Positions 12,292 through 41,074 of a stretch of DNA of 64,000 nucleotides are shown here, in pieces (position 1 is the stretch's first letter; each line of letters starts with the position of its first letter). The notes beneath the pieces were generated by a model. The model had not been told where the DNA came from. It did not search any database and saw only the letters and a list, made by a program, of their open reading frames with translations. Source of the stretch: Verrucomicrobiota bacterium (lineage in GTDB: Bacteria; Verrucomicrobiota; Verrucomicrobiia; Limisphaerales; UBA11358); NCBI GenBank assembly GCA_049510395.1, contig JBEKYY010000016.1:3095-67094 (forward strand), given 5' to 3'. The translations under genes and the position numbers were made by a program.

Positions 12292-12390
12292 GCGATGAAA
12301 TTAGAAGAAAATTCCCGCGTGGAAAACGTTAAAATGACAGGGCGGGCTCTTACCAGGACGCGTCTCATTTTTTGAACAGCTCCGAAAATT

Positions 12391-12540
12391 CTCATTAGCA
12401 CCGGGCTTCAGCCCGGTGATGACGGTCGAAAAACGTCGGGAAGCCGCTTCAACGGCTTCGGTATGCAGGGGAACCCGTTGAAACGGGTTTCATTCCCCAT
12501 GATCGCCGGGTTCACCCGGCTGAAGCCGGGTGCTAATGAG
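12391..12540 (+). repeat. family A MITE-like palindromic element (~150 bp), copy 1
   Basis: Terminal inverted repeats are ctcattagcaccgggcttcagcccggtga and tcacccggctgaagccgggtgctaatgag. Internal hairpins are gaagccgcttcaacggcttc and aacccgttgaaacgggtt. It has no coding capacity. Confidence 0.75.
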
Positions 12541-18100: not shown

Positions 18101-18126
18101 AATGGAGCCAATGGCCGGGATTGAAC
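18101..18126 (-). repeat. duplicated 3' end of tRNA-Thr (att-like direct repeat)
   Basis: aatggagccaatggccgggattgaac is identical to 22205..22230, which is the T-loop to CCA end of the intact tRNA-Thr. Confidence 0.85.
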
Positions 18127-18237
18127 TGAGTTCAACGATTCAGTGCCAAGATAATGGCGGGTTTCATTGGGAATCCAAGAAGAATGCGTCCTAACTTGTC
18201 ACTATTTTTCTTAACTCTGTCAGTGCTTTCACTGACA
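18124..18237 (+). repeat. 114-bp direct repeat, copy A (pairs with 22047..22160)
   Basis: actgagttcaacgattcagtgccaagataatggcgggtttcattgggaatccaagaagaat...cactatttttcttaactctgtcagtgctttcactgaca, with only a handful of mismatches between the copies. Confidence 0.85.
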
Positions 18238-18385
18238 GTTTCACTGACAGTTGTTAAAACTGAATGCGAAAGGACGGCGAAATCGTCCCAGCCTCATCCG
18301 GCCGTATTAAGTCAATGGTGTCATGTGTCGGTCTACTGATTGATGACCAGATTGACATCATCGCTGCAAAGCAGCGAGGGTGCTC

Positions 18386-20427: not shown

Positions 20428-22056
20428 TTACGGCTTGGCCGGGACAGCGACCAGTGCAATACCGTGTTTACGGTAGGCGACGGCTGGATTATCAAGCTTA
20501 ACCTGGTCGGCCAGGACGATTTTGTAGATCGACACGGGCGGCTGACTCACCGAAAACAAGCCGCTCTCACGTTCACGGATGGCAACATATTGACAAATCT
20601 GGCGGGGATAATAATAATCGGGTCCGGGCTTTGGAGCGATCGCCTGCATATACCCGTCGTCTTCCACTTGTATCCGCTGGTTTTTACCGGCATGAGTTTT
20701 CAGAGTTTGGTAAACAGTTTCGAGCTTGTGAAAACTTGGGAGAAACAGCGTTCCTTGCTCGATGCATTTTCCCTGATACCGGTATAGGGTCAAAACAAGC
20801 CAGACATTGGCGCAAAGTGTTGCCAAAAGCATGGTTAGAAAAATCTGCCGGATCCTCTGCCTGGACAGCCATCGAACGGCCGCCACCGCCGTCAGGGAAA
20901 ACAAAGGAGCAAGTAACACTATGCAATAACGGACGTGAAAACGGTTCCCTCCCACCAAGTATGTCATCAGCGGCCCGGCAAAAATGATCGTTAAAAAAAA
21001 CAGCCCCGGTGATCGGGCAAAAGCCGCGCGTGGCGACCGCCAAAAACCGCGCAGGGCTGCTCTGGCTTCCACCAAGGCCCCAAGCACCAATGATGCCGCC
21101 AGGATTATTGACGCCGCATTGAAAGCCAGCAGCAGGCTGAAACTGCCGAAGCAGATCCGACCGATCTCTCGATATTCATCGCGCCCAAAGGGCCATCGCG
21201 GGTCCCAGTAGTTGATCAGAAAACCCAGTGGCGCACTGAAAATCTTGAACGCCTCCCTGGAATATCCGTGGTGTCCGCCGGAAATCATATCACGGGTATT
21301 CTCCCAGCCGTGGGCCATTTCCCCGAAAATATACGGCAGATAAAGCGCCAATCCGGCGACAATGCCGCCAACCAACCACGGAACGTTCAGTCGCGTCGGC
21401 TTCAACCAAAGTACCAGGATTATCGTCGGGATCAGCATTAGTCCGGACATGTGAAATTGCAGCATCATCAGCGGCAGGAACAACAACCAAAATGCAGCTC
21501 GCGAACGATCCTGCTGCACCACCTGCCATAACGCGAGAAACAAGCAGGCCCCCAAAAAGGACATGACCCCCGGATTGAAGACAATGATGGAGAATTCAAT
21601 CGCCGCAGGTGAAGTGGCCATGAGCAAAGCCGCCCACAGCGCTGCGGAAAATCCAACTGTTCGAGCCGCCAGCAAATACGTCAGATAAATGGCGGCTGTG
21701 TTCAACAAAAGGATCGCCCAAACTACTCCATCAATTGACCCCCAAAGACGCAGTCCGGCGGCACAAAACATTGCCCATAGCGGGCCGGGAAGTTTGGCGT
21801 GTTCATTGAACTTGGGCAGGCCGAAATTGGGCTGGCCAATATATTGTGCACGCGGCTCACCTTGGGCATAGTCCACCGCCACACTGTAAGCATCCAAGCA
21901 GTCCACCTGCGAGGCGTAGCAAAAAGCCTGTCCCCACGTCATCCCGGCGATCCGCAAACCAAGCCCCAACAGTAAAATCAATAATAACCAAAGCCCGGTG
22001 TATTTTGACCTTTTGCCGTCAGTCAAAGTTGATGGTTCGGTTTGGACTGAGTTCAA
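20428..22056 (-). CDS. GT-C fold membrane glycosyltransferase (ArnT/PMT, GT39/GT83-like)
   Basis: At least 10 TM segments, an early periplasmic loop with acidic residues (VDCLDAYSVAVDY), and a C-terminal soluble domain. The listed start is TTG and there is no upstream ATG before TM1. Confidence 0.7.
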   Translation of the reverse strand: MNSVQTEPSTLTDGKRSKYTGLWLLLILLLGLGLRIAGMTWGQAFCYASQVDCLDAYSVAVDYAQGEPRAQYIGQPNFGLPKFNEHAKLPGPLWAMFCAAGLRLWGSIDGVVWAILLLNTAAIYLTYLLAARTVGFSAALWAALLMATSPAAIEFSIIVFNPGVMSFLGACLFLALWQVVQQDRSRAAFWLLFLPLMMLQFHMSGLMLIPTIILVLWLKPTRLNVPWLVGGIVAGLALYLPYIFGEMAHGWENTRDMISGGHHGYSREAFKIFSAPLGFLINYWDPRWPFGRDEYREIGRICFGSFSLLLAFNAASIILAASLVLGALVEARAALRGFWRSPRAAFARSPGLFFLTIIFAGPLMTYLVGGNRFHVRYCIVLLAPLFSLTAVAAVRWLSRQRIRQIFLTMLLATLCANVWLVLTLYRYQGKCIEQGTLFLPSFHKLETVYQTLKTHAGKNQRIQVEDDGYMQAIAPKPGPDYYYPRQICQYVAIRERESGLFSVSQPPVSIYKIVLADQVKLDNPAVAYRKHGIALVAVPAKP

Positions 22057-22160
22057 CGATTCAGTGCCAAGATAATGGCGGGTTTCATTGGGAATCCAAG
22101 AAGAATTCGGTCTAACTCGCCACTATTTTTCTTAACTCTGTCAGTGCTTTCACTGACACT
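22047..22160 (+). repeat. 114-bp direct repeat, copy B
   Basis: See 18124..18237. It overlaps the first codons and upstream region of the GT-C gene and ends 46 bp before tRNA-Thr. Confidence 0.85.
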
Positions 22161-22206
22161 TGACCTCCTTCGCATCTCAACCTGTTGGAAAATCTCCACT
22201 TAAGAA

Positions 22207-22281
22207 TGGAGCCAATGGCCGGGATTGAACCGGCGACCGACGGTTTACGAAACCGTTGCTCTACCGCTGAGCTACATTGGC
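22207..22281 (-). tRNA. tRNA-Thr (anticodon CGU)
   Basis: The reverse complement folds by hand as GCCAATG-TA-GCTC..GAGC-A-ACGGT-TTCGTAA-ACCGT-CGGTC-GCCGG-TTCAATC-CCGGC-CATTGGC-T-CCA. Confidence 0.9.
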
Positions 22282-27781: not shown

Positions 27782-28333
27782 ATGAATAACACTGAGCCAA
27801 AAACTTTGACCCGCGACGTCGAAGCCTCCGTGGTGCCCGTCGGGACGAAGGTCACGCTGCAAAAGGGCGGGCTGGCCTATGTCATGCAATCGCTCGGCGG
27901 CAATTATACCGTCGTCGTCAACGGCAACATGTTCCGCATTGACGGCAAGGACGCCGATGCGCTCGGCCTCGACGTGCATCCCAAACCGGTGGCGGCCACC
28001 GGCGGGCCGGTAACGCAGGACGAACTGGAAAAACAGGTCTGGGAAACACTCAAGACTTGTTACGACCCTGAGATTCCCATCAACATCGTGGACCTCGGCC
28101 TGATTTATGACTGTCACCTCACGTCCGTGGGCGAAAACAGCTACAAGGCCGATGTGAAAATGACTTTGACCGCGCCCGGCTGCGGCATGGGGCCGGCGCT
28201 CGCGCAGGACGTGCAAAACAAGTTGATGAGCATGGAGCCTATTGACGAGGCAAACGTCGAGCTGGTCTGGGATCCGCCGTGGAACCAGAGCATGATGACC
28301 GAGGCGGCCAAACTGCAACTCGGGCTGATGTAG
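27782..28333 (+). CDS. sufT: SufT-like DUF59 Fe-S assembly protein
   Basis: The C-terminal DUF59 reads VWETLKTCYDPEIPINIVDLGLIY...MTLTAPGCGMG...VELVWDPPW. The N-terminal extension is as in TIGR03406-type SufT. Confidence 0.8.
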   Translation: MNNTEPKTLTRDVEASVVPVGTKVTLQKGGLAYVMQSLGGNYTVVVNGNMFRIDGKDADALGLDVHPKPVAATGGPVTQDELEKQVWETLKTCYDPEIPINIVDLGLIYDCHLTSVGENSYKADVKMTLTAPGCGMGPALAQDVQNKLMSMEPIDEANVELVWDPPWNQSMMTEAAKLQLGLM

Positions 28334-28403
28334 CCACAGATTGACACAGATGAAACACAGATTTTTCATTTTATCTGCGTTCAATCTGTGTTTCATCTGT
28401 GGC
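28333..28403. repeat. imperfect palindrome of CACAGAT/GAAACACAGAT units between sufT and sufS
   Basis: gccacagattgacacagatgaaacacagat...atctgcgttcaatctgtgtttcatctgtggc. A related ATCCGTGTTCATCCGTGG motif is at 36638..36666. Confidence 0.55.
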
Positions 28404-28414
28404 AAAAAATTCCA

Positions 28415-29647
28415 ATGAATAAAACTGTTGACTGGGCGGCGCTGCGAAAGGATTTCCCGATCCTCGACCAGCAGGTCCACGGGAAGCCGTTGATTTATTT
28501 CGACAACGCTGCGACATCGCAAAAACCGCGCGCGGTGATTGACGCGTTGGTGCATTACTACGAACGCGACAACGCCAATGTCCATCGCGGCATCCATGAA
28601 TTGAGCAATCGCGCCACGGCGGGTTATGAGGCCGCCCGGACGCGTGCCGCCAAGTTCATCAACGCCCGCAGCGCCGAGGAAATCGTATTCACACGCGGCA
28701 CGACCGAGGGCATCAACCTGGTTGCCGGTTCCTGGGGCGCGAAAAATCTCAAAGCCAACGACATTATCCTGCTCACGGAAATGGAGCATCACAGCAACTT
28801 GGTGCCGTGGCAACTGCTCGCCCAACGCACCGGAGCCAGGCTCGCCTATTTACCCATCTCAGGTGACGATGCCCTGCTCGATCTGACCAAGCTCGATTCA
28901 TTGCTGACGAAACAGGTCAAGCTGTTTGCGATGGTCCACATCTCGAACTCGATGGGCACGGTGAATCCGGTTGCCGACCTTTGCGCCCGCGCGCGCAGGC
29001 TTGGTATCACCACGCTCGTGGACGCCGCGCAAAGCGCCGGCCACATGCCGGTGGACGTGCAGGCCATCGGCTGCGATTTCCTCGCGTTCTCCGGCCATAA
29101 AATCTGCGGGCCGACCGGTATCGGAATTTTGTGGGGCCGACAGGAATTGCTCGACGCCATGCCGCCGTATCAGGGCGGCGGCGAAATGATTTTGTCCGTT
29201 GAATATCAAAAGACCGAGTTCAAGAAGGCGCCGCACCGGTTCGAAGCCGGCACGCCGGACATTTCCGGCCCGATTGGTCTGCACGCCGCGATGGACTATC
29301 TCGACGCCATCGGGCGGGATAACATCTGGAAACACGACCAGGAACTGGCGACCTACGCCTACGAAAAACTGGCCGCGCTGAAGGGCATCCGGTTGTTCGG
29401 CCCGAAGCAAGGTCGTGGCGGGCTGGTTAGTTTTCTGCTCAAGGACATTCATGCGCACGACGTGGTGACGTTGGCCGACCAGGCCGGCGTGGCCTTGCGT
29501 GGTGGACATCACTGCACGCAACCGCTCATGCACCGGCTCGGCGTGGAATCCACCGCCCGCGCCAGCTTCTATTTTTACAACACCAAAGCCGAAGTGGACC
29601 GGTTCGTGGAAGTGGTGAAGGAAATTCAGAAATTTTTCGCGCAGTAA
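28415..29647 (+). CDS. sufS: cysteine desulfurase SufS
   Basis: YFDNAATSQKP, NVHRGIH, FSGHKICGPTGIG (PLP lysine), and RGGHHCTQPLM (catalytic Cys). Confidence 0.95.
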   Translation: MNKTVDWAALRKDFPILDQQVHGKPLIYFDNAATSQKPRAVIDALVHYYERDNANVHRGIHELSNRATAGYEAARTRAAKFINARSAEEIVFTRGTTEGINLVAGSWGAKNLKANDIILLTEMEHHSNLVPWQLLAQRTGARLAYLPISGDDALLDLTKLDSLLTKQVKLFAMVHISNSMGTVNPVADLCARARRLGITTLVDAAQSAGHMPVDVQAIGCDFLAFSGHKICGPTGIGILWGRQELLDAMPPYQGGGEMILSVEYQKTEFKKAPHRFEAGTPDISGPIGLHAAMDYLDAIGRDNIWKHDQELATYAYEKLAALKGIRLFGPKQGRGGLVSFLLKDIHAHDVVTLADQAGVALRGGHHCTQPLMHRLGVESTARASFYFYNTKAEVDRFVEVVKEIQKFFAQ

Positions 29648-29932
29648 ACCAGTCATGAAAATCGTAAAGCAATCCATGACTTGCTTCAGTTAACAACGTC
29701 CAATTGAGTAGATCAGCCAACATCTGATTTTCACTCATTCCCCTCGCATGACCCAGCCTTTGGTGGGTTCTCACCAAGCAAAGAGACAAGCGGAAGCAAC
29801 CCAATCATCAATTTCCCAAGATTTGAAACCGATGATAACAACCAAACCAAGCGCCGCTGTCATTAGGTGCATATTTTTCGTGACATTTCCGGCTAAATTT
29901 GTTCTTATTATCAATTGCAGCTGGAATTAATC

Positions 29933-32900
29933 ATGCGCTTCGTAAGCAGAACATTGCCGATGCTCGTTGGTGCGGGTAAAACAAGTGACGCCAGCAAACG
30001 ATTCAGTGTCGGAGCTTTAGTAGTTCTGTTTCTCTTTTCCGCGACTCCGGTCCGGTCAGCAGAAAGACAATTGCTTCGCAATCACATTCCTGCAGTCACT
30101 TCGAAATTGCGGCCGGTGGACCGACTCGCAAGCTCGAAGCGTTTAAATCTTGTATTTGCGCTGCCGCTGCGCAACCAAAAGGCACTCACCAATCTGCTCC
30201 AGCAACTCTACGATCCGACGAGTTCCAATTACCGACAGTACCTGACGCCGCAGCAGTTTGCCGAGAGGTTTGGACCGACCGAACAAGACTATCGCGCTGT
30301 CATGGATTTTGTGAGAGCGCAGGGTTTGACTGTGACCGGAACACATCCCAACCGCACATTGTTGGACGTGAGCGGAACGGTTGCGGAAATCGAAAGTGCA
30401 TTTCATGTCAACCTGGTGGTTTACAATCACCCGATCGAAGCCCGGACGTTTTATGCACCGGATGTTGAACCTTCGATCGACCTGACGGTTCAAGCATTGG
30501 AGGTGGTGGGCCTCGATGATTATGTTATGCCGCGTCCGATGTACCACCAAATGGCAACTCCCCTTGTGCAAGCCAATGAGACGAAGCCCAACGTCGGCTC
30601 AGGACCTGGCGGGACATTTATGGGCAACGATTTCCGGGCAGCCTACATTCCGGGCATTGCGCTCACTGGCTCAGGGCAGAAGGTTGGCCTGTTAGAATTT
30701 GATGGATACTTTACCAATGATCCAGTCCAATATGCGATCCAAGCCGGTCTGACGAACATTCTGACGATCACCAATGTGCTGGTGGACGGATTCGACGGCA
30801 CCCCTGGTTCCTACAATGTTGAGGTTGCCTTGGATATCGAAATGGTCATGTCCATGGCTCCGGGAGCTCAGATTATCGTCTATGAAGGTTCCATCACCAC
30901 ACCAACAATTATCATAGATCTCTTGAACCGTATGGCGACCGATAATCTGGCCCAGCAATTGAGCGCTTCCTGGACGTATCATACGGGGCCGGCGATGGAG
31001 CAGGTTTTTCAGCAAATGGCAGGGCAAGGACAATCGTTTTTTAATTGTTCCGGAGATCATGATGCTTACAGCGGAACAGTAACCACGCCGGCGGATGACC
31101 CGTATATCACAATCGTAGGGGGGACGACTTTGACGACCAGCGGGCCTGGAAGCAACTGGGTGTCAGAAACCTGCTGGAACTGGGGCAACGACATTGGAAG
31201 TGGCGGTGGAATCAGTACAAGCTGGGCAATTCCGTCATGGCAACAAGGCATTAATATGTCGAGCAATAATGGTTCAACGACCATGCGGAACCTCCCTGAC
31301 GTTGCGATGGTGGCGGACAGGGTTTATGCCATCGCCGACAACGGCGCGCCGCAGTATCTGGGCGGCACAAGCATTTCGACTCCGCTCTGGGCAGCGTTTA
31401 CGGCGTTGGTCAATGAGAAGGCGGGGCTTCAAGGCAAGCAACCGGTCGGTTTTGTCAATTATGCCCTCTACGCCATTGGCCAAGGAACGAATTACAACAC
31501 GGCATTCCACGACATTACGACCGGCAACAACACAAACAGCAACAGTCCAAACAACTTTTTCGCCGTGCCAGGCTACGACCTTTGCACAGGTTGGGGAACC
31601 CCGACACCAAACTTGATTGATGCCATGCTCAACGTCCAGTTCGTCATTCCAAATGGCTGGACACTAACGAGCCTGCCAAATGAAGATTGGTCTGGCGTCG
31701 CCTCTTCAGCAGACGGCACTAAGTTGGTTGCAGTAGACTTGTCTGGAGGACATCAGATCTATGTCTCGTCTTCATCAGGAGTGATTTGGCGGCCCTATGG
31801 GCCGGCAGCAAGCTGGCGCGGAATTGCCTCCTCCGCCGACGGAACTAAATTGGCCGCGGCACCGTGGTATGGCTCCATTTACATCTCGACAGATTCCGGT
31901 GTCACATGGACAGCGACGACTTCACCTTCCTATTCGTGGCGTTCGATGGCCTCTTCGGCCGATGGAACCAAATTGGCTGCGGGGGCATTCTGGGAAGGGG
32001 TTTTTGAAGTTTCGACCAATTCAGGTGCAACTTGGATGGCATCCAGCATGTCTGGCAGTATAAATTGGATGCCAGTCGCTTGGTCAGCAGACGGCGGCGT
32101 GTTGGTGGCTGCTTGTGGTAGTACGGTTTATGTATCAACCAATTCAGGCGCCACAAGCAGGTCAACTACCTTGCCGGGAATGAATTGTACATCTGTGGCT
32201 TCGGCGGCGGATGGCTCCAAACTGTTTGCTGCTGGAGGTTCCATTTACATATCCACAAACCTGGGGGCGAGTTGGACAATTTCCGGGCCCGCTTCCGGGG
32301 CGGGATTAGTGGCGTGTTCCGGAGATGGCTACAGACTTGCAGCCGTATCGGACCAAGTTTACATTTCAGACGATGGAGGGACAACTTGGACGTGTGTCGG
32401 ACCACGAACGCCCCCCACATATATGAGTTGGTCGACGATCGCCTGTTCTGCTGATGGAAGCAGATTAATCGCGGCAATAGAGGATTATTATGATGGGCCG
32501 GTTTACACAGGCGTGTTTCCCCGAAGTGGACCAATCATCACGACGCCCCCCGCCAATCAGGCGGCCGTCGTCGGCAGCGACGCGGTGTTCAGTGTGGTTG
32601 CCATTGGCCCTCCGCCTTTGACTTATCAGTGGAGTTATAACGGAACAAATATTTTGGGTGCCACCAACAGTTGGTTAATCTTGACCAATGTGCAATTCAG
32701 CCAAGCCGGCTATTACGGTGTGCAAGTGAATGACGTTTATGGTTCACGTTTCAGTCCCAACGTGGCGCTGACGGTTGTTCCACCGCCGGTAACAATTCTG
32801 GTCCAGCCGACAAATCAAACAGCGGTTCTGGGCACCGCAGTGCGTTTCACCGTTACCGCGCTCGGCACGCCGCCGTTGAGTTACCAATGGTTGTTCAACG

Positions 32901-35458
32901 GCACGAACATGGCTGGGGCGACAAATAGTGAGCTGATGCTTTTCAATGTCCAACCGACCAACGCCGGCACGTACGCCGTGACGGTAGCCAATGCGTATGG
33001 CCCAATCACCAGTTCCAATGCGGTATTGACGTTGATTTCACCAACGCCGTGTGCCGAGCCGCCCTCCGGGTTGATCAGTTGGTGGCAGGCGGAAGGCAAT
33101 GCCATCGATAGAATGGGAACCATCAACGGCTCGTTGGTCGGCAACACAACTTACGGTCCGGGTTTTATAGGTCAGTGCTTTGTTCTCGACGGCGACGGCG
33201 ATGCCATCACGCTGGGCAATCTCTCGAGCTTTGGGTTGCAGGTATTCACGGTTGAGATGTGGATCAAACGAACCAGCACAACGCTCAGTACTCAAAACGG
33301 AAGCAAGGCCTATCTGTTCGCCTTCGGTGGCGGCGAAGACGGATTTGGTCTATTTAACGATGGCACTCTATTCTTTCAAAGTGGCTGCTGTTACGGAACC
33401 GGGGCACCTGTCAACGATACGAATTGGCATCATGTGGCGGTGACCGCGACTGGCACTGGTGACACCATCTATATCGATGGAACAGTCAGGGGAGGTTCGA
33501 TGTGGCCGAAATCGTTCTCCTTAACCACCGTGGCCATCGGTGCGCGAGGGGACGCTACGGCCAACAGTTTTTACGGAGCGATTGACGAACCTTCGCTGTA
33601 CAATCGCGTGCTTTCCGACACTGAAATTCAATCCATTTACAATGCCGGTGTCTATGGCAAGTGTTTGTTGCCGGCTCCACCCTTTATTCTGTCCCAGCCG
33701 ACGAACCAGGCGGTGGAGGTGGGAAGCACGGCGACCTTTACGGTTGCTGTCGGAGGCATGCGGAAGTCGTTGAGTTACCAGTGGCAATTCAATGGAACAA
33801 ACATCGTTGGACAGACAAACGCCTCGCTGGTTTTGACCAACGTCCAATTTCCGGAAGCAGGCACTTACGCGGTGCTGCTAACCAACGCGTTTGGATCAAC
33901 AACCAGTTCCAGCGCAATACTAACCGTCTACGGTCTGCCGCCCGCCATAATCTCCCAGCCGACGAACCAGACGGTGGAGGGGGGCAGCACGGCGACGTTC
34001 GCAGTGGTCGCTGGCGGCACACATCCGTTAAGTTATCAGTGGAGTTGTAATGGCACGCACCTGACTGGGGCGACGAACGCCTCGCTGGTTCTAACCAACG
34101 TCCAACGGAGTCAAGCAGGCACTTACGCGGTGCTGGTGACCAACGCTTTTGGATCAACAACCAGTTCCAGCGCAATACTAACCGTCTACGGTCTGCTGCC
34201 CGCCATCATCTCCCAGCCGACGAACCAGACGGTGGAGGTGGGGAGCACGGTGACGTTCGCGGTCTTGGCTGGCGGCACACGTCCGTTAAGTTATCAGTGG
34301 AGTTGTAATGGTACGAACCTGACTGAGGCGACGGACGCCTCGCTGGTTCTGACTAACGTTCAACTGAGTCAAGAAGGCACTTACGTGGTGCTGGTGACCA
34401 ACGCTTTTGGTTCGATCCTCAGCTCTAATGCAGTGCTGACTGTCTCTCCCGGATATGTTAACACCGTGAACATTGGCACCTCAGCAACCGTGCGAACCAA
34501 TGGGTCGTCTGTTGGTCGAGGCACTGGACTGCTGGCTTCAAAAGATGTTGCGCCCAGAGGGTACCGGTTTGCACTCCTCACAAGTGCCACCGTAACACAA
34601 AGTGAACCAGCCAATATTCTTGATGCCCAGTGGCGATTCACCGGGGTTACGATGACCAACTTTATCTATTTCGGTTCCGTCAATGGTGGTGCTCATGTTC
34701 CGGCCAATTATTGGCATTACGGCCAGAGCAATGCGTTTGTCGTGGTAGGTTGGTCGGCCAACCTTGGAAGCAACTGGCTTACGATATCGAATGATGTGGC
34801 GACTGGTGCTTGGAATACCAGTGATGGCTGCAATGGTTATTTTGGCGTGTCGCCTATTGGTTATGGGATAGCTGGCCCACCCCCTCCGGAAATCGCATTC
34901 AGGATTTGGGGTAACACCAGTACTTCGGGAGTGCCGATAAATGTCCAATGGGATTTGTATGCCGTGGGAACACGACCTGTTATCTCTTCCCACCCAACGA
35001 ATCAAACGGTGGTGGTGGGAGGTGCGGCGACATTCACGGTGGTGGCTGGCGGCATGCTGCCATTGAGTTATCAGTGGCAATTTAACGGTGCCGACTTGTG
35101 CAACGACACAAACTTCTTTCTGACTTTCACTCATGCTCAGTCCACTAACGCCGGCTTTTATCAAGTTGTCGTGACCAACGTTTACGGGTCGGTGACGAGT
35201 TCAGTCGCCACGCTCAGCATTCTGGGGGTGCCGGTGTCTTTTAGCACGAGTGGAGAAGACATCCGATACATCAACGGCCAATTCCTCATCAAACTGATCG
35301 ACTTAACCGGCCAAGGACCGTTGGTAATGGAAACATCGACCAATCTGACAGATTGGTCCCCGATCTTCACCAACCCGGCCGCGTTTGGCGAAATCAAGTT
35401 CGCTGATCCTGTGGCGACTAACAACCCGCAACGATTTTATCGGGCGCTCGTTCGGTGA
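29933..35458 (+). CDS. giant secreted multidomain protein: pro-kumamolisin activation domain + S53 sedolisin peptidase + BNR/Asp-box beta-propeller + Ig-like repeats + LamG/ConA-like domain + C-terminal W...RFYR module
   Basis: Signal peptide from the ATG at 29933. YLTPQQFAERFGPTEQDY is the propeptide. LGGTSISTPLWAAF is the S53 Ser motif. The SSADGTKLxA unit recurs seven times, and five Asp boxes are present (STDSGVTW, STNSGATW, SDDGGTTW...). Six Ig-like units share the LSYQW..NGT...AGTYAV pattern. The LamG block is WHHVAVTATG...IDEPSLYNRVLSDTEI. Confidence 0.85.
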   Translation: MRFVSRTLPMLVGAGKTSDASKRFSVGALVVLFLFSATPVRSAERQLLRNHIPAVTSKLRPVDRLASSKRLNLVFALPLRNQKALTNLLQQLYDPTSSNYRQYLTPQQFAERFGPTEQDYRAVMDFVRAQGLTVTGTHPNRTLLDVSGTVAEIESAFHVNLVVYNHPIEARTFYAPDVEPSIDLTVQALEVVGLDDYVMPRPMYHQMATPLVQANETKPNVGSGPGGTFMGNDFRAAYIPGIALTGSGQKVGLLEFDGYFTNDPVQYAIQAGLTNILTITNVLVDGFDGTPGSYNVEVALDIEMVMSMAPGAQIIVYEGSITTPTIIIDLLNRMATDNLAQQLSASWTYHTGPAMEQVFQQMAGQGQSFFNCSGDHDAYSGTVTTPADDPYITIVGGTTLTTSGPGSNWVSETCWNWGNDIGSGGGISTSWAIPSWQQGINMSSNNGSTTMRNLPDVAMVADRVYAIADNGAPQYLGGTSISTPLWAAFTALVNEKAGLQGKQPVGFVNYALYAIGQGTNYNTAFHDITTGNNTNSNSPNNFFAVPGYDLCTGWGTPTPNLIDAMLNVQFVIPNGWTLTSLPNEDWSGVASSADGTKLVAVDLSGGHQIYVSSSSGVIWRPYGPAASWRGIASSADGTKLAAAPWYGSIYISTDSGVTWTATTSPSYSWRSMASSADGTKLAAGAFWEGVFEVSTNSGATWMASSMSGSINWMPVAWSADGGVLVAACGSTVYVSTNSGATSRSTTLPGMNCTSVASAADGSKLFAAGGSIYISTNLGASWTISGPASGAGLVACSGDGYRLAAVSDQVYISDDGGTTWTCVGPRTPPTYMSWSTIACSADGSRLIAAIEDYYDGPVYTGVFPRSGPIITTPPANQAAVVGSDAVFSVVAIGPPPLTYQWSYNGTNILGATNSWLILTNVQFSQAGYYGVQVNDVYGSRFSPNVALTVVPPPVTILVQPTNQTAVLGTAVRFTVTALGTPPLSYQWLFNGTNMAGATNSELMLFNVQPTNAGTYAVTVANAYGPITSSNAVLTLISPTPCAEPPSGLISWWQAEGNAIDRMGTINGSLVGNTTYGPGFIGQCFVLDGDGDAITLGNLSSFGLQVFTVEMWIKRTSTTLSTQNGSKAYLFAFGGGEDGFGLFNDGTLFFQSGCCYGTGAPVNDTNWHHVAVTATGTGDTIYIDGTVRGGSMWPKSFSLTTVAIGARGDATANSFYGAIDEPSLYNRVLSDTEIQSIYNAGVYGKCLLPAPPFILSQPTNQAVEVGSTATFTVAVGGMRKSLSYQWQFNGTNIVGQTNASLVLTNVQFPEAGTYAVLLTNAFGSTTSSSAILTVYGLPPAIISQPTNQTVEGGSTATFAVVAGGTHPLSYQWSCNGTHLTGATNASLVLTNVQRSQAGTYAVLVTNAFGSTTSSSAILTVYGLLPAIISQPTNQTVEVGSTVTFAVLAGGTRPLSYQWSCNGTNLTEATDASLVLTNVQLSQEGTYVVLVTNAFGSILSSNAVLTVSPGYVNTVNIGTSATVRTNGSSVGRGTGLLASKDVAPRGYRFALLTSATVTQSEPANILDAQWRFTGVTMTNFIYFGSVNGGAHVPANYWHYGQSNAFVVVGWSANLGSNWLTISNDVATGAWNTSDGCNGYFGVSPIGYGIAGPPPPEIAFRIWGNTSTSGVPINVQWDLYAVGTRPVISSHPTNQTVVVGGAATFTVVAGGMLPLSYQWQFNGADLCNDTNFFLTFTHAQSTNAGFYQVVVTNVYGSVTSSVATLSILGVPVSFSTSGEDIRYINGQFLIKLIDLTGQGPLVMETSTNLTDWSPIFTNPAAFGEIKFADPVATNNPQRFYRALVR
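33675..34450 (+). repeat. three tandem ~258-261-bp coding repeats (Ig-like units) inside the giant gene
   Basis: The units begin near 33675, 33938 and 34195 (..ISQPTNQTVE.GSTATFAV.AGGT.PLSYQWSCNGT...). Units 2 and 3 are nearly identical at the nucleotide level. Confidence 0.85.
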
Positions 35459-35662
35459 AATGGCAGCAGGTTGTAGCTGTAATCCGAGGAGCTTTTCTTG
35501 CAACGATTCAGCAACGAACCATACCAAAGCGCGAAGTGTAGGAAATTTCCCCACGCACAGTGGGCATTGTTAGCTTTCGGAAGGCGGAGTTCCACGCGCC
35601 CTAAATTTTCGGGTCTCGCGGAGTTCGACCCTCCGACAGATTTTTGAGTCGTGGCAGCCAGT

Positions 35663-35915
35663 TTATTCGCGGCCGGCTGCGGCGATGAACGGCTTCAATT
35701 CCTTCATCAGCTTCGCGAACATGTCAAACGACATCTGTTGCGCGCCGTCGCTCCAGGCTTCCGCCGGGTTGGGATGCACCTCGATCAACAACGCGTCCGC
35801 GCCCATGGCCACCGCGCCCTTGCACATCGCCGCCACCAGGTCCGCGCGCCCGGCGCCCTGGCTCGGGTCAACCACGATCGGGCAGTGCGATTCGCGCTTG
35901 ATGATGGGAATGGCG
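35663..35915 (-). pseudogene. 3' fragment of a DAHP synthase gene (duplicate of the aroF C-terminus)
   Basis: It encodes ...DPSQGAGRADLVAAMCKGAVAMGADALLIEVHPNPAEAWSDGAQQMSFDMFAKLMKELKPFIAAAGRE*. This is near-identical to the last ~80 aa of the 36682..37701 product, and the whole 5' part is missing. Confidence 0.85.
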
Positions 35916-36086
35916 GACCAGGCGGGCGTAGCCTTGCGCGGCGGGCATCATTGCACCCAACCGCTCATGCGCCGGCTGGGCGTGGAATCCACCGCCCGCG
36001 CCAGTTTTTATTTCTATAACACCAAAGCCGAAGTGGACCGGTTCGTGGAAGTCATCCGCGAGATTCAAAAATTCTTCGGCGGATGA
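35912..36086 (+). pseudogene. 3' fragment of a sufS gene (duplicate of the SufS C-terminus)
   Basis: It encodes DQAGVALRGGHHCTQPLMRRLGVESTARASFYFYNTKAEVDRFVEVIREIQKFFGG*. Compare the SufS end ...HHCTQPLMHRLGVESTARASFYFYNTKAEVDRFVEVVKEIQKFFAQ*. It abuts the aroF fragment head to head. Confidence 0.85.
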
Positions 36087-36681
36087 TTAACTGCGAACGG
36101 TGGGGCGCCCGTCCTCCGCAGTAGTTTTGCTACGGAGGGTGGAAGGCTACCGACGAGCCGAAACAGTTCTTGCCGCAAAAAAGCGCAAAAGACGCAAAAC
36201 AGAGTGGTACAGGCACCCTGCCTGTCTGTGCGGAAGGGAAAAAATTGATAGTGAAGCGACCCGCCGAACCGACAGATGACTTTCAAACCCAATTTGACAA
36301 TAACGCACTGAGATATCCGTGTTCATCAGCGGTCTCTTCCGATTACACTACCACCTCAGCCAGCCGGTTTTGATTTCGGTGACCAACGATTTTCCCGGTC
36401 GCGCTCGGCGGCGCGGTCTTCCAACAATTCCTGCACGGCGGATTTCTCGCCAGGCTTGGATTTGAAGATACCGCAATATGAGCGAATCCGCTTGTGGATT
36501 TCTGTGCCTGTTATTTTTTTACGGCTGGCCATGCCAAGATTTTGCCACAGCAAGCCTGTTTTGGGAGAAAAAAGTCACGGCGCGCAAGGGACTGCGCGCC
36601 CTACCTTTCGTGTGGTTGGTGTATTTCGTAGTTAAAAATCCGTGTTCATCCGTGTTCATCCGTGGCTAAAAATCTTTGCGT

Positions 36682-37701
36682 TCATTCCCGCCCGGCCGCG
36701 GCGATGAAGGGCTTCAATTCCTTCATCAGCTTCGCGAACATGTCGAACGATACTTGTTGCGCGCCGTCGCTCCAGGCTTCCGCCGGGTTGGGATGCACCT
36801 CGATCAACAACGCGTCCGCGCCCATGGCCACCGCGCCCTTGCACATCGCTGTCACCAAGTCCGCGCGCCCGGCGCCCTGGCTCGGGTCAATCACGATCGG
36901 ACAGTGCGATTCGCGCTTGATGATGGGGATGGCCGAAAGGTCCAGCGTGTTGCGCGTGTAGGTTTCGAACGTGCGGATGCCGCGTTCGCAGAACAGGAGA
37001 TTCGGATTTTCATTGGCGAGCACATATTCGCCCGCGAGCAGCCATTCCTCGATTCTCATGGAGAGTCCGCGCTTGAGCAGAACCGGCTTACCGGTCCGGG
37101 CGGCGGCGATGAGGAGCTGGAAGTTCTGTGAATTGCGCGCGCCGATCTGGATGATGTCCGTGTATTCGGCCACCAGTTCGGCGTGGTTTTCAGAAAGCAA
37201 TTCGGTGATGACGGCCAGCCCGGTGAGGCGCCGCGCCTTGTCGAGCAGCTTCAGGCCTTTCTCGCCCAGTCCCTGGAATTCGTACGGGGACGTGCGCGGC
37301 TTGAACGCCCCACCGCGCAGGAAGGTCGCCCCGGCGGCCTTCACCGCCTCGGCGGTCCGGAGCAGCTGTTTCTCGCTTTCGACCGAGCATGGCCCGGCCA
37401 TGACGTGGAATGATTTGCCGCCGATGACGTGTTCGCGGACGCGGATGACAGAATTGGCCGGGTGCGCCTCGCGGCTGACGAGTTTGTAACGTTTCTGGAT
37501 GGGCGTGACGCTTTCGACCGCGCCCGGGAATTGCGAGACCAGCGTTTCGAGATTGGCATGGGTGAGTTCGTCGCCGATGGCGCCGATGACGGTGCGCGCC
37601 ACGCCGCGCATGACGTGGGGGATGTAGCCGAGTCGGCGGATTTCCTTGAGGACGGAGCGCTCCTCCTTCCTCGAAATCCGGGGTTTAAGCACGATGATCA
37701 T
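36682..37701 (-). CDS. aroF: 3-deoxy-7-phosphoheptulonate (DAHP) synthase, type I-beta with N-terminal ferredoxin-like regulatory domain
   Basis: MIIVLKP... N-domain, then AGPCSVES, LRGGAFKPRTSPY.FQGLG, IQIGARN and IVIDPSQG. Confidence 0.92.
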   Translation of the reverse strand: MIIVLKPRISRKEERSVLKEIRRLGYIPHVMRGVARTVIGAIGDELTHANLETLVSQFPGAVESVTPIQKRYKLVSREAHPANSVIRVREHVIGGKSFHVMAGPCSVESEKQLLRTAEAVKAAGATFLRGGAFKPRTSPYEFQGLGEKGLKLLDKARRLTGLAVITELLSENHAELVAEYTDIIQIGARNSQNFQLLIAAARTGKPVLLKRGLSMRIEEWLLAGEYVLANENPNLLFCERGIRTFETYTRNTLDLSAIPIIKRESHCPIVIDPSQGAGRADLVTAMCKGAVAMGADALLIEVHPNPAEAWSDGAQQVSFDMFAKLMKELKPFIAAAGRE

Positions 37702-37972: not shown

Positions 37973-38124
37973 CTGATTAGCACCCGGCTTCAGCCGGGTG
38001 AAATCCAGTTATCATTTGGATTAAACCCGTTTCAACGGGTTTTCCCTCGCGCACAAAAGCCGTTGAAACGGCTTCCTGATGCTCTGCGACCGTCATCACC
38101 GGGCTGAAGCCCGGTGCTAATGAG
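37973..38124 (-). repeat. family A MITE-like element, copy 2 (opposite orientation to copy 1)
   Basis: ctgattagcacccggcttcagccgggtga ... aaacccgtttcaacgggttt ... aagccgttgaaacggctt ... tcaccgggctgaagcccggtgctaatgag. Confidence 0.75.
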
Positions 38125-38147
38125 AATGCTCCACTTTCCGAACAAAA

Positions 38148-40892: not shown

Positions 40893-41040
40893 TCTCACCG
40901 ACACCGCGGCTTCAGCCCGGTGCTTTGATGCGTCGTAAATCCACAGCCGTTTCAACGGCTTTTCATGATTCGAAGCCGTTGAAACGGCCATCTTCCCATC
41001 GGCCGCAGTTAACACCACGCTAAAGCAGGGTGTTAATGAG
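40893..41040. repeat. family A MITE-like element, copy 3 (degenerate), between psd and pssA
   Basis: caccgcggcttcagcccggtgc ... cagccgtttcaacggctt ... gaagccgttgaaacggcc ... cagggtgttaatgag. Confidence 0.55.
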
Positions 41041-41074
41041 ATTCCGTTCAATTGAAAATGTTGAAAATTCATTG

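What the first reader, a model, noticed from the sequence alone, without database searches (positions are those of the whole stretch)
35663..36086. Head-to-head 3' fragments of aroF and sufS joined at a microhomology: scar of a tandem duplication or Campbell-type integration bracketing the 5.5-kb giant gene
**Seen in the sequence.** The gene order is: full sufS (28415..29647,+), 6 kb carrying the giant S53 gene, an aroF 3' fragment (35663..35915,-), a sufS 3' fragment (35912..36086,+), a 595-bp spacer, then full aroF (36682..37701,-). The two fragments meet at ..aatggcgga.., where full aroF has gatggccgaaagg and full sufS has gttggccgaccagg. They share TGGCCGA, so the junction sits on a 7-bp microhomology.

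**Divergence.** By eye the fragments differ from the full copies by roughly 5-15% at the nucleotide level and are close to identical at the protein level. The two spacers downstream of the sufS copies share no similarity.

**Inference.** This is exactly the topology expected in two scenarios. In the first, the block [sufS 3' - spacer - aroF 3'] duplicated in tandem. In the second, it circularised (possibly from a related strain whose spacer carried the giant gene) and integrated by a single crossover within sufS. The second model explains both the divergence and the unrelated spacers, and it would be a mobile-element-free route for acquiring a very large adhesin/protease gene.
Basis: partly seen in the sequence, partly recalled or inferred. 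Interest (0 to 1): 0.65.

Follow-up and report, generated by a model that had tools for sequence, protein, structure and literature searches.

The report
Recombination scar between aroF and sufS
Two leftover gene ends sitting head-to-head between the aroF and sufS genes of an uncultured peat Verrucomicrobium are a real scar of one recombination event that stacked two alternative versions of a variable inter-gene region, taken from two related lineages, side by side; the mechanism is a known kind, and it is not shown that the giant gene was the piece that came in.

Summary
A 255-nt 3' fragment of aroF (35663-35917, -) abuts a 175-nt 3' fragment of sufS (35912-36086, +). They are 94% and 83-86% identical to the full genes, and they overlap in a 7-nt microhomology (TGGCGGA, 35911-35917).

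The arrangement is not a misassembly. It recurs at 99.6-100% identity in contigs from 10 independent peat metagenomes built by different assemblers.

Differences between fragments and full copies are overwhelmingly synonymous (dN/dS about 0.08 for both pairs). There are no indels or stops, and the differences run right up to the junction. An in-situ tandem duplication followed by decay is therefore rejected (P = 1.7e-6). The copies are orthologous alleles from different lineages.

The best explanation is one insertion-duplication: DNA from a related Limisphaerales species, circularised or end-joined at the microhomology, integrated by one homologous crossover (Campbell-type, or HFIR-like). No integrase or transposase is nearby.

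In about 45 relatives, aroF and sufS are a conserved convergent pair with a spacer of 15 nt to 9 kb. The cargo there includes toxin-antitoxin (TA) modules, restriction genes and surface proteins. Five other loci carry similar displaced 3' fragments.

Which piece came in is unresolved. The 1-kb segment carrying a truncated antitoxin gene (here called orf65) is at least as likely as the giant gene. This is a known kind of scar and of modest interest.

The parts
28415..29647 (+). Full-length sufS (cysteine desulfurase, 410 aa; a GTG at 28388 gives 419 aa). It is the last gene of a SUF cluster.
   Evidence: Pfam Aminotran_5, E = 4e-145. Gene calls and neighbouring SufBD/NifU/FeS_assembly_P genes. 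A source names it cysteine desulfurase.
29473..29647 (+). The 3' 58 codons of full sufS that are repeated in the fragment.
   Evidence: 146/175 nt identical to 35912-36086.
29933..35458 (+). Giant secreted-type protein (1841 aa; the TTG at 29915 gives 1847 aa) with a pro-kumamolisin/S53 N-terminus, Ig repeats and LamG. It occupies 'haplotype B' of the aroF-sufS spacer.
   Evidence: Pfam. It belongs to a family of more than 3000 relatives, but the nearest outside this population is only 64-69% identical and lies elsewhere in its genome.
35459..35662 (.). Spacer between the giant gene and the aroF fragment. It keeps native aroF-downstream sequence and a terminator-like hairpin at 35619-35635.
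   Evidence: blastn hits to the sequence immediately downstream of aroF in L014, L010 and L013. Terminator scan.
35663..35917 (-). Displaced 3' fragment of aroF: the last 84 codons plus the stop, in frame, with no indels.
   Evidence: 239/255 nt identical to 36682-36936. Pfam DAHP_synth_1, E = 6e-15. 11.5 synonymous against 3.5 nonsynonymous differences.
35911..35917 (.). Junction microhomology TGGCGGA, shared by the aroF and sufS fragments.
   Evidence: Sequence. Orthologue alleles carry the same heptamer. P about 4e-4 by chance.
35912..36086 (+). Displaced 3' fragment of sufS: the last 57 codons plus the stop, in frame, with no indels.
   Evidence: Pfam Aminotran_5 positions 309-371 of 371. 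20 synonymous against 8 nonsynonymous differences. Its variant residues (..EVIREIQKFFGG) occur in intact orthologues.
35685..36086 (+). Chimeric 133-aa ORF. It reads antisense through the aroF fragment and then in frame into the sufS fragment. Gene callers call it, but it is probably not functional.
36087..36681 (.). 'Haplotype A' spacer (595 bp). It contains a terminator-like hairpin after the sufS fragment (36100-36138), a hairpin after aroF (36579-36600, -) and tandem CCGTGTTCAT repeats (36638-36664).
   Evidence: Both of its ends match the native aroF-downstream and sufS-downstream sequence of relatives.
36356..36553 (-). orf65, a truncated antitoxin-like ORF. Residues 23-56 are 82% identical to the C-terminus of a MazE/AbrB-type antitoxin that is paired with a PIN toxin in L009. 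No toxin remnant is present.
36682..37701 (-). Full-length aroF (DAHP synthase with an N-terminal FXD domain, 339 aa). Its last 255 nt (36682-36936) are the repeat partner of the fragment.
   Evidence: Pfam. Named 3-deoxy-7-phosphoheptulonate synthase by a source.

Best explanation
The head-to-head fragments are the scar of a single insertion-duplication.

**Setting.** In this genus aroF and sufS converge on a short, hypervariable spacer.

**The event (inferred).** A piece of DNA from a related species reached from inside sufS (58 codons before its stop), across that species' own spacer, to inside aroF (85 codons before its stop). Its two ends were joined at a 7-nt microhomology (TGGCGGA), giving a circle. 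The circle integrated into the resident chromosome by one RecA-type crossover in one of the two homologous gene ends (Campbell-type). An equivalent path is one homologous exchange plus one illegitimate end-join of linear DNA (HFIR-like).

**The product (shown).** Both genes stay intact. Two allelic spacer haplotypes lie in tandem: A is 595 bp with a truncated antitoxin gene, and B is the 5.5-kb S53/Ig gene. One displaced 3' end of each flanking gene sits at the join.

**Shown.**
- The repeats, the junction and the microhomology.
- Reproducibility across independent samples.
- The allelic (purifying-selection) nature of the divergence.
- The hotspot and similar scars in relatives.
- The absence of recombinase genes nearby.

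**Inferred.**
- The circular intermediate.
- The route by which the DNA entered the cell.
- Which haplotype was resident. I put the 1-kb A segment as the incoming piece at about 55-60% and the giant gene at about 40-45%.
For: - **Repeats and junction:**. A microhomology of 7 nt or more is expected by chance at only about 4e-4.
- **Not an artefact:** ten contigs from ten samples span the whole structure at 99.6-100% identity. They come from JGI and ENA and carry MEGAHIT-style (k141_) and SPAdes-style (NODE_) contig names. The longest are 158,896 and 128,628 bp. The longest exact run shared by the repeats is 95 nt. The junction overlap of 7 nt is far below any assembler k-mer.
- **Allelic divergence:** NG86 (Nei-Gojobori counting) gives aroF 11.5 synonymous / 3.5 nonsynonymous (dN/dS 0.078, dS 0.23) and sufS 20 / 8 (dN/dS 0.076, dS 0.84). 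The combined P is 1.7e-6 against 'one copy decays neutrally'. There are no indels or stops in 430 nt.
- **Differences reach both edges:** they extend to within 3-5 nt of the junction and into the last codons. Later two-sided imports therefore cannot explain them.
- **Natural alleles:** the fragment-specific residues occur in intact orthologues. Fragment-to-full identity (93.7%) equals inter-species identity in the genus.
- **Native flanks:** each fragment keeps its own native downstream sequence, while the two spacers are unrelated.
- **Hotspot:** the spacer is 15 nt to 9 kb in about 45 relatives, with TA modules, Mrr, an MvaI/BcnI restriction gene with a C5 methylase, HNH, DUF11 surface proteins, GH53 and a sulfatase.
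- **Recurrent scars:** L009/L109 have aroF + mazEF + a 113-codon aroF fragment (dN/dS 0.024, P = 1e-7). L042, L114 and L126 have sufS + TA + a 30-codon sufS fragment. L118 has ychF + mazEF + a 30-codon ychF fragment.
- **Ongoing exchange:** strain differences are clustered in 450-700-bp tracts of 4-8% divergence in these same flanking genes.
- **No integrase or transposase** within 10 kb on either side.
- **Experimental precedent:** duplications of 109-950 bp of the homologous locus arise from single crossovers with circularised molecules (PMC3240628).
Against: - No strain or species with an empty site or an intact donor haplotype was found. All roughly 20 contigs of this population carry the scar, and reconstructed pre-event aroF and sufS proteins are absent from a collection of about 15 billion proteins.
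- The circular intermediate, and any competence or DNA-entry route in this uncultured lineage, are not demonstrated.
- dS differs between the two pairs (0.23 against 0.84). I attribute this to gene-specific rates, because sufS 3' ends are also more diverged between species, but mosaic ancestry is possible.
- All the assemblies appear to be short-read (judged from contig naming); no long read was seen.
- In L118 the two ychF copies are identical in their coding part, so at least one related scar could be an in-situ event.
Confidence: 0.72

Rival explanations
1. In-situ tandem duplication. The block [sufS 3' - spacer - aroF 3'] duplicated by unequal exchange at the microhomology. The copies then diverged in place and one spacer was later replaced.
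For: The topology and the microhomology junction are what such a duplication gives. The identical ychF repeat in L118 shows that fresh duplications may occur in this clade.
Against: - dN/dS is 0.08 in both pairs, where about 64% of differences should be nonsynonymous if one copy were a decaying pseudogene (P = 1.7e-6).
- There are no indels or stops.
- The spacers are unrelated.
- Rescuing the model with later imports needs at least four separate import tracts, because the differences reach both the junction and the stop codons of both pairs.
Confidence: 0.06
2. Whole-block duplication or acquisition of complete second copies of sufS and aroF. These stayed functional for a long time, and a later microhomology-mediated deletion removed the 5' parts of the inner copies.
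For: It gives the same final topology and would also explain the synonymous-biased divergence.
Against: - It needs two illegitimate events plus long-term maintenance of unstable 1-kb direct repeats.
- None of the roughly 45 relatives that have both genes at this locus carries two full copies.
- dS is at inter-species level, so such paralogues should be visible in sister species.
Confidence: 0.08
3. Integrase- or transposase-mediated insertion of a mobile element that targets the 3' end of aroF or sufS and carries a replacement gene end (attL/attR-like repeats or long target-site duplications).
For: Integrative islands typically restore the 3' end of their target gene and leave a displaced copy. 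The same 561-nt mazEF cassette appears at several positions in relatives.
Against: - No integrase, transposase or relaxase lies within 10 kb on either side.
- Junction positions differ between instances: aroF at -85 against -113 codons, sufS at -58 against -30 codons.
- The cassette's right boundary also differs.
- The repeats are 90-343 nt and diverged like orthologues, not identical target-site duplications.
Confidence: 0.04
4. Assembly chimera or collapse that joins reads of two co-occurring strains.
For: The source is metagenomic and apparently short-read. Some contigs of the population break inside the repeats (L090, L093, L102).
Against: - The same junction occurs in 10 samples with contigs from different assemblers.
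- The repeats are 6-17% diverged, with a 95-nt maximum exact run.
- The junction overlap is only 7 nt, which no de Bruijn graph would join.
Confidence: 0.02

Closest known systems
Campbell-type insertion-duplication: a single crossover between a circular DNA and the chromosome, as seen with circularised plasmid fragments in E. coli conjugation (Amarir-Bouhram et al. 2011, PMC3240628)
   Same: Part of the homologous locus is duplicated and flanks the inserted DNA. In that study the duplications were 109-950 bp; here they are 175 and 255 nt. Only host recombination functions are needed. The circle is closed by an illegitimate join.
   Different: Here this is inferred from a natural genome. The circle would derive from chromosomal DNA of a related species, not from a plasmid. 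It carries the ends of two different convergent genes, so both flanking genes leave a fragment.
Homology-facilitated illegitimate recombination (HFIR; de Vries & Wackernagel 2002, Prudhomme et al. 2002, Meier & Wackernagel 2003, all as cited in PMC5361080 and PMC3240628)
   Same: One homologous anchor plus one join at a short, GC-rich microhomology. Foreign DNA is added without mobile-element functions.
   Different: In the E. coli assay of PMC3240628, HFIR was scored by deletion of recipient DNA downstream of the anchor. Here part of the anchor region is duplicated, which in the E. coli study marked circular substrates instead. Natural competence is unknown for this lineage.
Orphan 3' ends and orphan immunity genes in Rhs/CDI and Vibrio cholerae T6SS effector-immunity arrays ('sequential displacement', Kirchberger et al. 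2017, PMC5361080)
   Same: An incoming module that carries its own copy of the conserved gene part displaces the resident 3' end downstream, and it persists there as a fragment. An HFIR-like mechanism is proposed. No integrase is involved.
   Different: Those loci are polymorphic-toxin genes whose variable 3' ends are the cargo. Here the displaced ends belong to housekeeping genes (DAHP synthase, cysteine desulfurase, YchF), and the cargo lies in the intergenic spacer.
Minimal mobile elements / recombination hotspots between conserved genes (Neisseria MMEs, Saunders & Snyder 2002; recalled from my own knowledge, not checked here)
   Same: A pair of conserved flanking genes with alternative cassettes between them in different genomes, exchanged by homologous recombination.
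   Different: Exchange at MMEs is two-sided and leaves no scar. Here the exchange was one-sided or additive, so both haplotypes and the gene-end fragments remain.

Membership tests
Campbell-type / HFIR-type insertion-duplication scar | Direct repeats of a chromosomal segment flank the added DNA, and one intact copy of the target gene is kept. | tested here: met
   aroF pair 255 nt at 94%; sufS pair 175 nt at 83-86%; both full genes intact.
Campbell-type / HFIR-type insertion-duplication scar | A novel junction formed at a short microhomology. | tested here: met
   TGGCGGA at 35911-35917. The same heptamer occurs in orthologue alleles. Chance is about 4e-4.
Campbell-type / HFIR-type insertion-duplication scar | The two repeat copies derive from different genomes (donor and recipient alleles). 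| tested here: met
   dN/dS 0.08, no indels, P = 1.7e-6 against in-situ decay. Identity equals inter-species identity. The fragment's residues are found in intact orthologues.
Campbell-type / HFIR-type insertion-duplication scar | An empty site or an intact donor haplotype exists in close relatives. | tested here: inconclusive
   Relatives have a single aroF/sufS pair with other cargo. No near-identical genome lacks the scar, no intact giant-gene haplotype was found, and the reconstructed pre-event proteins are not in the collection.
Campbell-type / HFIR-type insertion-duplication scar | A circular intermediate or excision product. | not testable with these tools
   Needs raw reads or PCR with outward-facing primers.
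Integrase-mediated genomic island inserted in the 3' end of a gene | A tyrosine or serine recombinase gene at one end of the insert. | tested here: not met
   No such Pfam family among the called genes within 10 kb on either side.
Integrase-mediated genomic island inserted in the 3' end of a gene | The same att core position in independent insertions. | tested here: not met
   Junctions at aroF codon -85 (window) against -113 (L009), and at sufS codon -58 (window) against -30 (L042, L114, L126).
Transposon with target-site duplication | Short, identical target-site duplications, terminal inverted repeats and a transposase. | tested here: not met
   The repeats are 175-255 nt and 6-17% diverged. 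No inverted repeats flank the insert. No transposase.
In-situ tandem duplication | The copies are identical at birth and the non-functional copy then decays neutrally. | tested here: not met
   Observed 11.5 nonsynonymous of 43 differences, against 64% expected. The spacers are unrelated.
Recombination hotspot between conserved genes (MME-like) | The same conserved flanking genes with different cargo in different genomes. | tested here: met
   The aroF-sufS spacer is 15 nt to 9 kb, with unrelated cargo in about 45 loci.

The most novel reading that the evidence does not exclude
In Limisphaerales, gene cassettes (TA modules, and possibly very large surface-protein genes) may spread without any mobile-element machinery. 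They would do so as 'Campbell cassettes': small circles carrying a cassette plus the 3' end of a conserved housekeeping gene. A circle integrates by host homologous recombination and restores the gene while leaving a displaced 3' fragment. The resulting direct repeats can then loop the cassette out again as a transferable circle. Scars at aroF, sufS and ychF in several species would be footprints of this route, which is recurrent and self-propagating and needs only RecA.
Probability: 0.25. Interest if true: 0.55.

Novelty: new member of a known kind. Interest (0 to 1): 0.35.

Why it matters
The locus gives a clean natural footprint of additive, mobile-element-free gene gain between species of an uncultured soil and peat phylum. 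The junction is resolved to the base, and a substitution-pattern test separates 'imported allele' from 'local duplicate'.

It also marks the aroF/sufS spacer as a defence, TA and surface-protein hotspot in Limisphaerales. Similar displaced gene ends recur there, which is useful for anyone annotating these metagenome-assembled genomes (MAGs): the 61-133-aa 'Aminotran_5' and 70-aa 'DAHP_synth_1' gene calls are scars, not genes. It is also useful for studies of how recombination adds genes rather than replacing them.

It does not reveal a new mechanism, and it does not show how the giant gene was acquired.

Tried and rejected
- **Looked for an empty-site or sister strain.** Exact-protein look-ups of aroF, the FeS-assembly protein and YchF returned only the same arrangement, in about 20 contigs. 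The sufS look-up with the 419-aa start found nothing because gene callers use the 410-aa start.
- **Genome and metagenome scans with aroF** gave 160 loci at 80-96% aa identity. None was close enough to act as a sister, and none had the giant gene at this locus.
- **Searched for the giant gene's donor.** The nearest homologues are 64-69% identical and not next to aroF or sufS.
- **Tried to set polarity with sliding identity profiles** of aroF against 18 relatives and with best-hit ranks of fragments against full copies. All are about 88-96%, with no clear signal.
- **Exact look-up of eight reconstructed pre-event chimeric proteins:** none exists in the collection. Cluster members gave no N-terminal match with a fragment-type C-terminus.
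- **Looked for a toxin partner of orf65** in the 595-bp spacer: none.
- **Pfam on small spacer ORFs:** nothing.
- **Considered long target-site duplication by a mobile mazEF cassette.** Rejected because the repeat copies differ like orthologues and the cassette boundaries vary.
- **The two original HFIR papers** (PMC122324, PMC122325) are not held in the library.

Full report
**1. What is in the sequence**

The region reads, on the + strand:
- full sufS (28415-29647; Aminotran_5, E = 4e-145);
- a 285-nt spacer;
- a gene of about 1840 codons for a pro-kumamolisin (S53)/Ig/LamG protein (29933-35458);
- a 204-nt spacer;
- the last 84 codons plus stop of aroF on the minus strand (35663-35917);
- the last 57 codons plus stop of sufS on the plus strand (35912-36086);
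- a 595-nt spacer;
- full aroF on the minus strand (36682-37701; DAHP_synth_1 plus the FXD domain);
- ychF.

The repeat finder gives 257 nt at 94% for the aroF pair and 168 nt at 86% for the sufS pair. Over the full lengths the counts are 239/255 and 146/175.

The two fragments overlap in TGGCGGA (35911-35917). Orthologous sufS genes most often read CTGGCGGACCAGGCG there, and some aroF alleles read ATGGCGGA. The parental microhomology was therefore 7-8 nt, and the 'G' that differs from both resident full copies is a natural allele. A microhomology of 7 nt or more is expected at about 4e-4 of random junctions. The spacers that follow the two sufS copies are unrelated.

**2. Not an assembly artefact**

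Exact-protein look-ups for aroF, the FeS-assembly protein and YchF retrieved about 20 contigs of this population. They come from JGI and ENA assemblies of at least 14 samples.

Ten contigs from ten samples span the whole structure at 99.6-100% nucleotide identity. They carry k141_ (MEGAHIT-style), NODE_ (SPAdes-style) and JGI contig names, and two are 158,896 and 128,628 bp long. The repeats share at most 95 identical bases in a row, and the junction overlap is 7 nt, which no k-mer graph would bridge. Some contigs end inside the repeats, as expected for real repeats.

**3. The copies are alleles from different lineages, not a local duplicate in decay**

Nei-Gojobori (NG86) counting gives:

| Pair | Synonymous | Nonsynonymous | dS | dN/dS |
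|---|---|---|---|---|
| aroF | 11.5 | 3.5 | 0.23 | 0.078 |
| sufS | 20 | 8 | 0.84 | 0.076 |

If the fragments had been non-functional since a local duplication, about 64% of the differences should be nonsynonymous. Observing 11.5 of 43 gives P = 1.7e-6.

There is no indel or stop in 430 nt. The fragment-specific amino-acid states (for example ..EVIREIQKFFGG) occur in intact orthologues. The 93.7% identity between the aroF fragment and the full copy equals the identity between species of this genus.

The differences reach to within a few bases of the junction and into the last codons of both genes. Later two-sided homologous imports therefore cannot have created the pattern without at least four separate tracts.

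Each fragment also carries its own native downstream sequence, recognisable in other species. The structure is thus two complete allelic versions of the aroF-sufS spacer placed in tandem.

**4. Context in relatives**

Scans of genome and metagenome collections with aroF gave 160 loci. Most are Limisphaerales or other Verrucomicrobiota MAGs, and the closest come from peat sites such as SPRUCE, Stordalen and Danish soils.

Where both genes are on the contig (about 45 loci), aroF and sufS are always a single convergent pair. The spacer between them ranges from 15 nt to about 9 kb. It holds unrelated cargo:
- MazEF and VapBC-like TA modules;
- Mrr-type and MvaI/BcnI restriction genes, the latter with a C5 methylase;
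- an HNH protein;
- DUF11 and TSP3 surface proteins;
- a GH53 glycosidase;
- a sulfatase.

None of these loci has the giant gene. Its nearest homologues (64-69% identity) lie elsewhere in their genomes.

The locus is therefore a recombination hotspot between two housekeeping genes. No integrase, transposase or relaxase is called within 10 kb on either side.

**5. The same kind of scar recurs**

- **L009/L109:** full aroF, a 561-nt mazEF cassette, then a 113-codon aroF 3' fragment (20 synonymous, 2 nonsynonymous; P = 1e-7).
- **L042, L114 and L126:** full sufS, a TA module, then a 30-codon sufS fragment (mostly synonymous differences).
- **L118:** full ychF, the same mazEF cassette, then a 30-codon ychF fragment that is identical in its coding part.

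The junction positions differ from those in the window, and the right boundary of the mazEF insert differs between L009 and L118. This argues for illegitimate breakpoints rather than a site-specific recombinase. The mazEF cassette also sits downstream of aroF without any duplication in L010, L112, L114 and L020, which provides plausible donor haplotypes.

The window's own 595-bp spacer carries orf65. Its residues 23-56 are 82% identical to the C-terminus of the antitoxin of a VapBC-like pair in L009, and no toxin remains.

**6. Mechanism**

One illegitimate join at a microhomology plus one homologous exchange with DNA of a related species explains everything in a single event.

In E. coli, duplications of 109-950 bp of the homologous locus were the signature of single crossovers with circularised molecules. 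True HFIR was expected to give deletions (PMC3240628). I therefore favour a Campbell-type integration of a circle closed at TGGCGGA, with a linear HFIR-like path as a variant that cannot be told apart from it. Natural-genome precedents are the orphan 3' ends and immunity genes of Rhs/CDI and Vibrio T6SS loci, for which an HFIR-like 'sequential displacement' was proposed (PMC5361080).

Ongoing exchange with diverged relatives is visible in this very population. Strain L005 differs by 35 SNPs confined to 27827-28273, and L091 by 26 SNPs confined to 36850-37558. Elsewhere these two are identical to the window apart from a 10-bp indel in L005 and four other SNPs in L091.

**7. What remains open: polarity**

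Two circles give the identical product:
- **X:** [sufS 3' - orf65 spacer - aroF 3'], about 1 kb, crossing over in aroF, into a genome that already had the giant gene.
- **Y:** [sufS 3' - giant - aroF 3'], about 6.4 kb, crossing over in sufS.

No sister genome, donor or reconstructed pre-event protein was found. Identity profiles against relatives are flat.

The indirect arguments lean to X:
- The aroF homology is longer and better (255 nt at 94%, with a 95-nt perfect run, against 175 nt at 83-86%, with a 35-nt run).
- Import tracts in this population are short.
- In the unambiguous analogue L009, the piece between the repeats is a small TA segment.

I put X at 55-60%.

**8. Rivals**

- In-situ tandem duplication is rejected by the substitution pattern and by the unrelated spacers.
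- A whole-block duplication trimmed later by deletion would fit the pattern. It needs two illegitimate events and long-lived full paralogues, which none of the roughly 45 relatives shows.
- An integrase or transposon origin fails on the absence of the enzyme, the variable junctions, and the long, diverged repeats.
- Misassembly fails on reproducibility across samples and assemblers.

**9. Verdict**

This is a real, well-resolved recombination scar of a known kind (insertion-duplication, HFIR-type), sitting in a newly described hotspot of an uncultured lineage. It is useful for annotation: the small 'Aminotran_5' and 'DAHP_synth_1' gene calls are scars. It also serves as a natural example of additive recombination. 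It is not a new mechanism.

Noticed in passing
L009 11024-11584; L118 915-1475; L010 11100-11660; L112 1562-2122; L114 6447-7007; L020 12436-12995: The same 561-nt mazE-mazF cassette (promoter-like TTGACG..TATCTT, a 75-aa antitoxin and a 105-aa PemK/MazF toxin; 90-93% nt identity) occurs in six species. It lies at different distances downstream of aroF and, in L118, downstream of ychF. In L009 and L118 it is followed by a displaced 3' fragment of the upstream gene.
   Followed up: partly
L042 19212-20093; L114 9899-10854; L126 14445-15398: In three other species a TA module sits between full sufS and a displaced sufS 3' fragment of about 90 nt. In L042 it is a PIN toxin plus antitoxin; in L114 and L126 it is a 67-aa plus 168-aa pair. 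All three junctions fall at about codon -30. This may be one old event that spread, or a recurrent breakpoint.
   Followed up: partly
window 36638-36664 and 36315-36326; also many intergenic sites in L008, L013, L021, L024, L059, L160: A short motif, ATCCGTGTTCAT(CCGTG), is tandemly repeated just downstream of aroF and recurs in both orientations in the intergenic regions of relatives (REP-like). Strain L005 differs from the window by a 10-bp repeat-unit indel here.
   Followed up: partly
window 27827-28273 (against L005) and 36850-37558 (against L091): Strain-level differences are confined to two tracts of 450-700 bp with 4-8% divergence. One lies in the FeS-assembly gene and one in aroF, in otherwise near-identical contigs. 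They look like recent homologous imports from other species.
   Followed up: partly
window 18111-18240 and 22032-22161: A 130-nt non-coding direct repeat (92% identity) brackets a 3.9-kb segment holding a glycosyltransferase gene, a YdjC gene and a 542-aa ORF of unknown function. One copy lies 46 nt from tRNA-Thr (22207-22281). This could be another small islet with att-like repeats.
   Followed up: no
window 12388-12473, 38042-38127, 40973-41041: An 86-nt element containing hairpins (..GCTGAAGCCCGGTGCTAATGAGA) is present in three copies, two of them inverted relative to each other at 86% complementarity. One copy lies between ychF and aroF. It looks like a REP/MITE-like intergenic repeat. Rfam has no match at gathering threshold.
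   Followed up: no
window 32543-35088: The giant gene contains 258-nt tandem repeats (up to 92% identical) that encode its Ig domains. Gene callers disagree on its start, giving products of 1832, 1841 or 1847 aa.
   Followed up: no
L118 3732-6248; L126 12561-14372; L014 12065-14122: The aroF-sufS hotspot in relatives carries restriction and defence genes: a C5 methylase with an MvaI/BcnI endonuclease, Mrr-type nucleases and an HNH protein. It therefore behaves as a small defence islet.
   Followed up: partly
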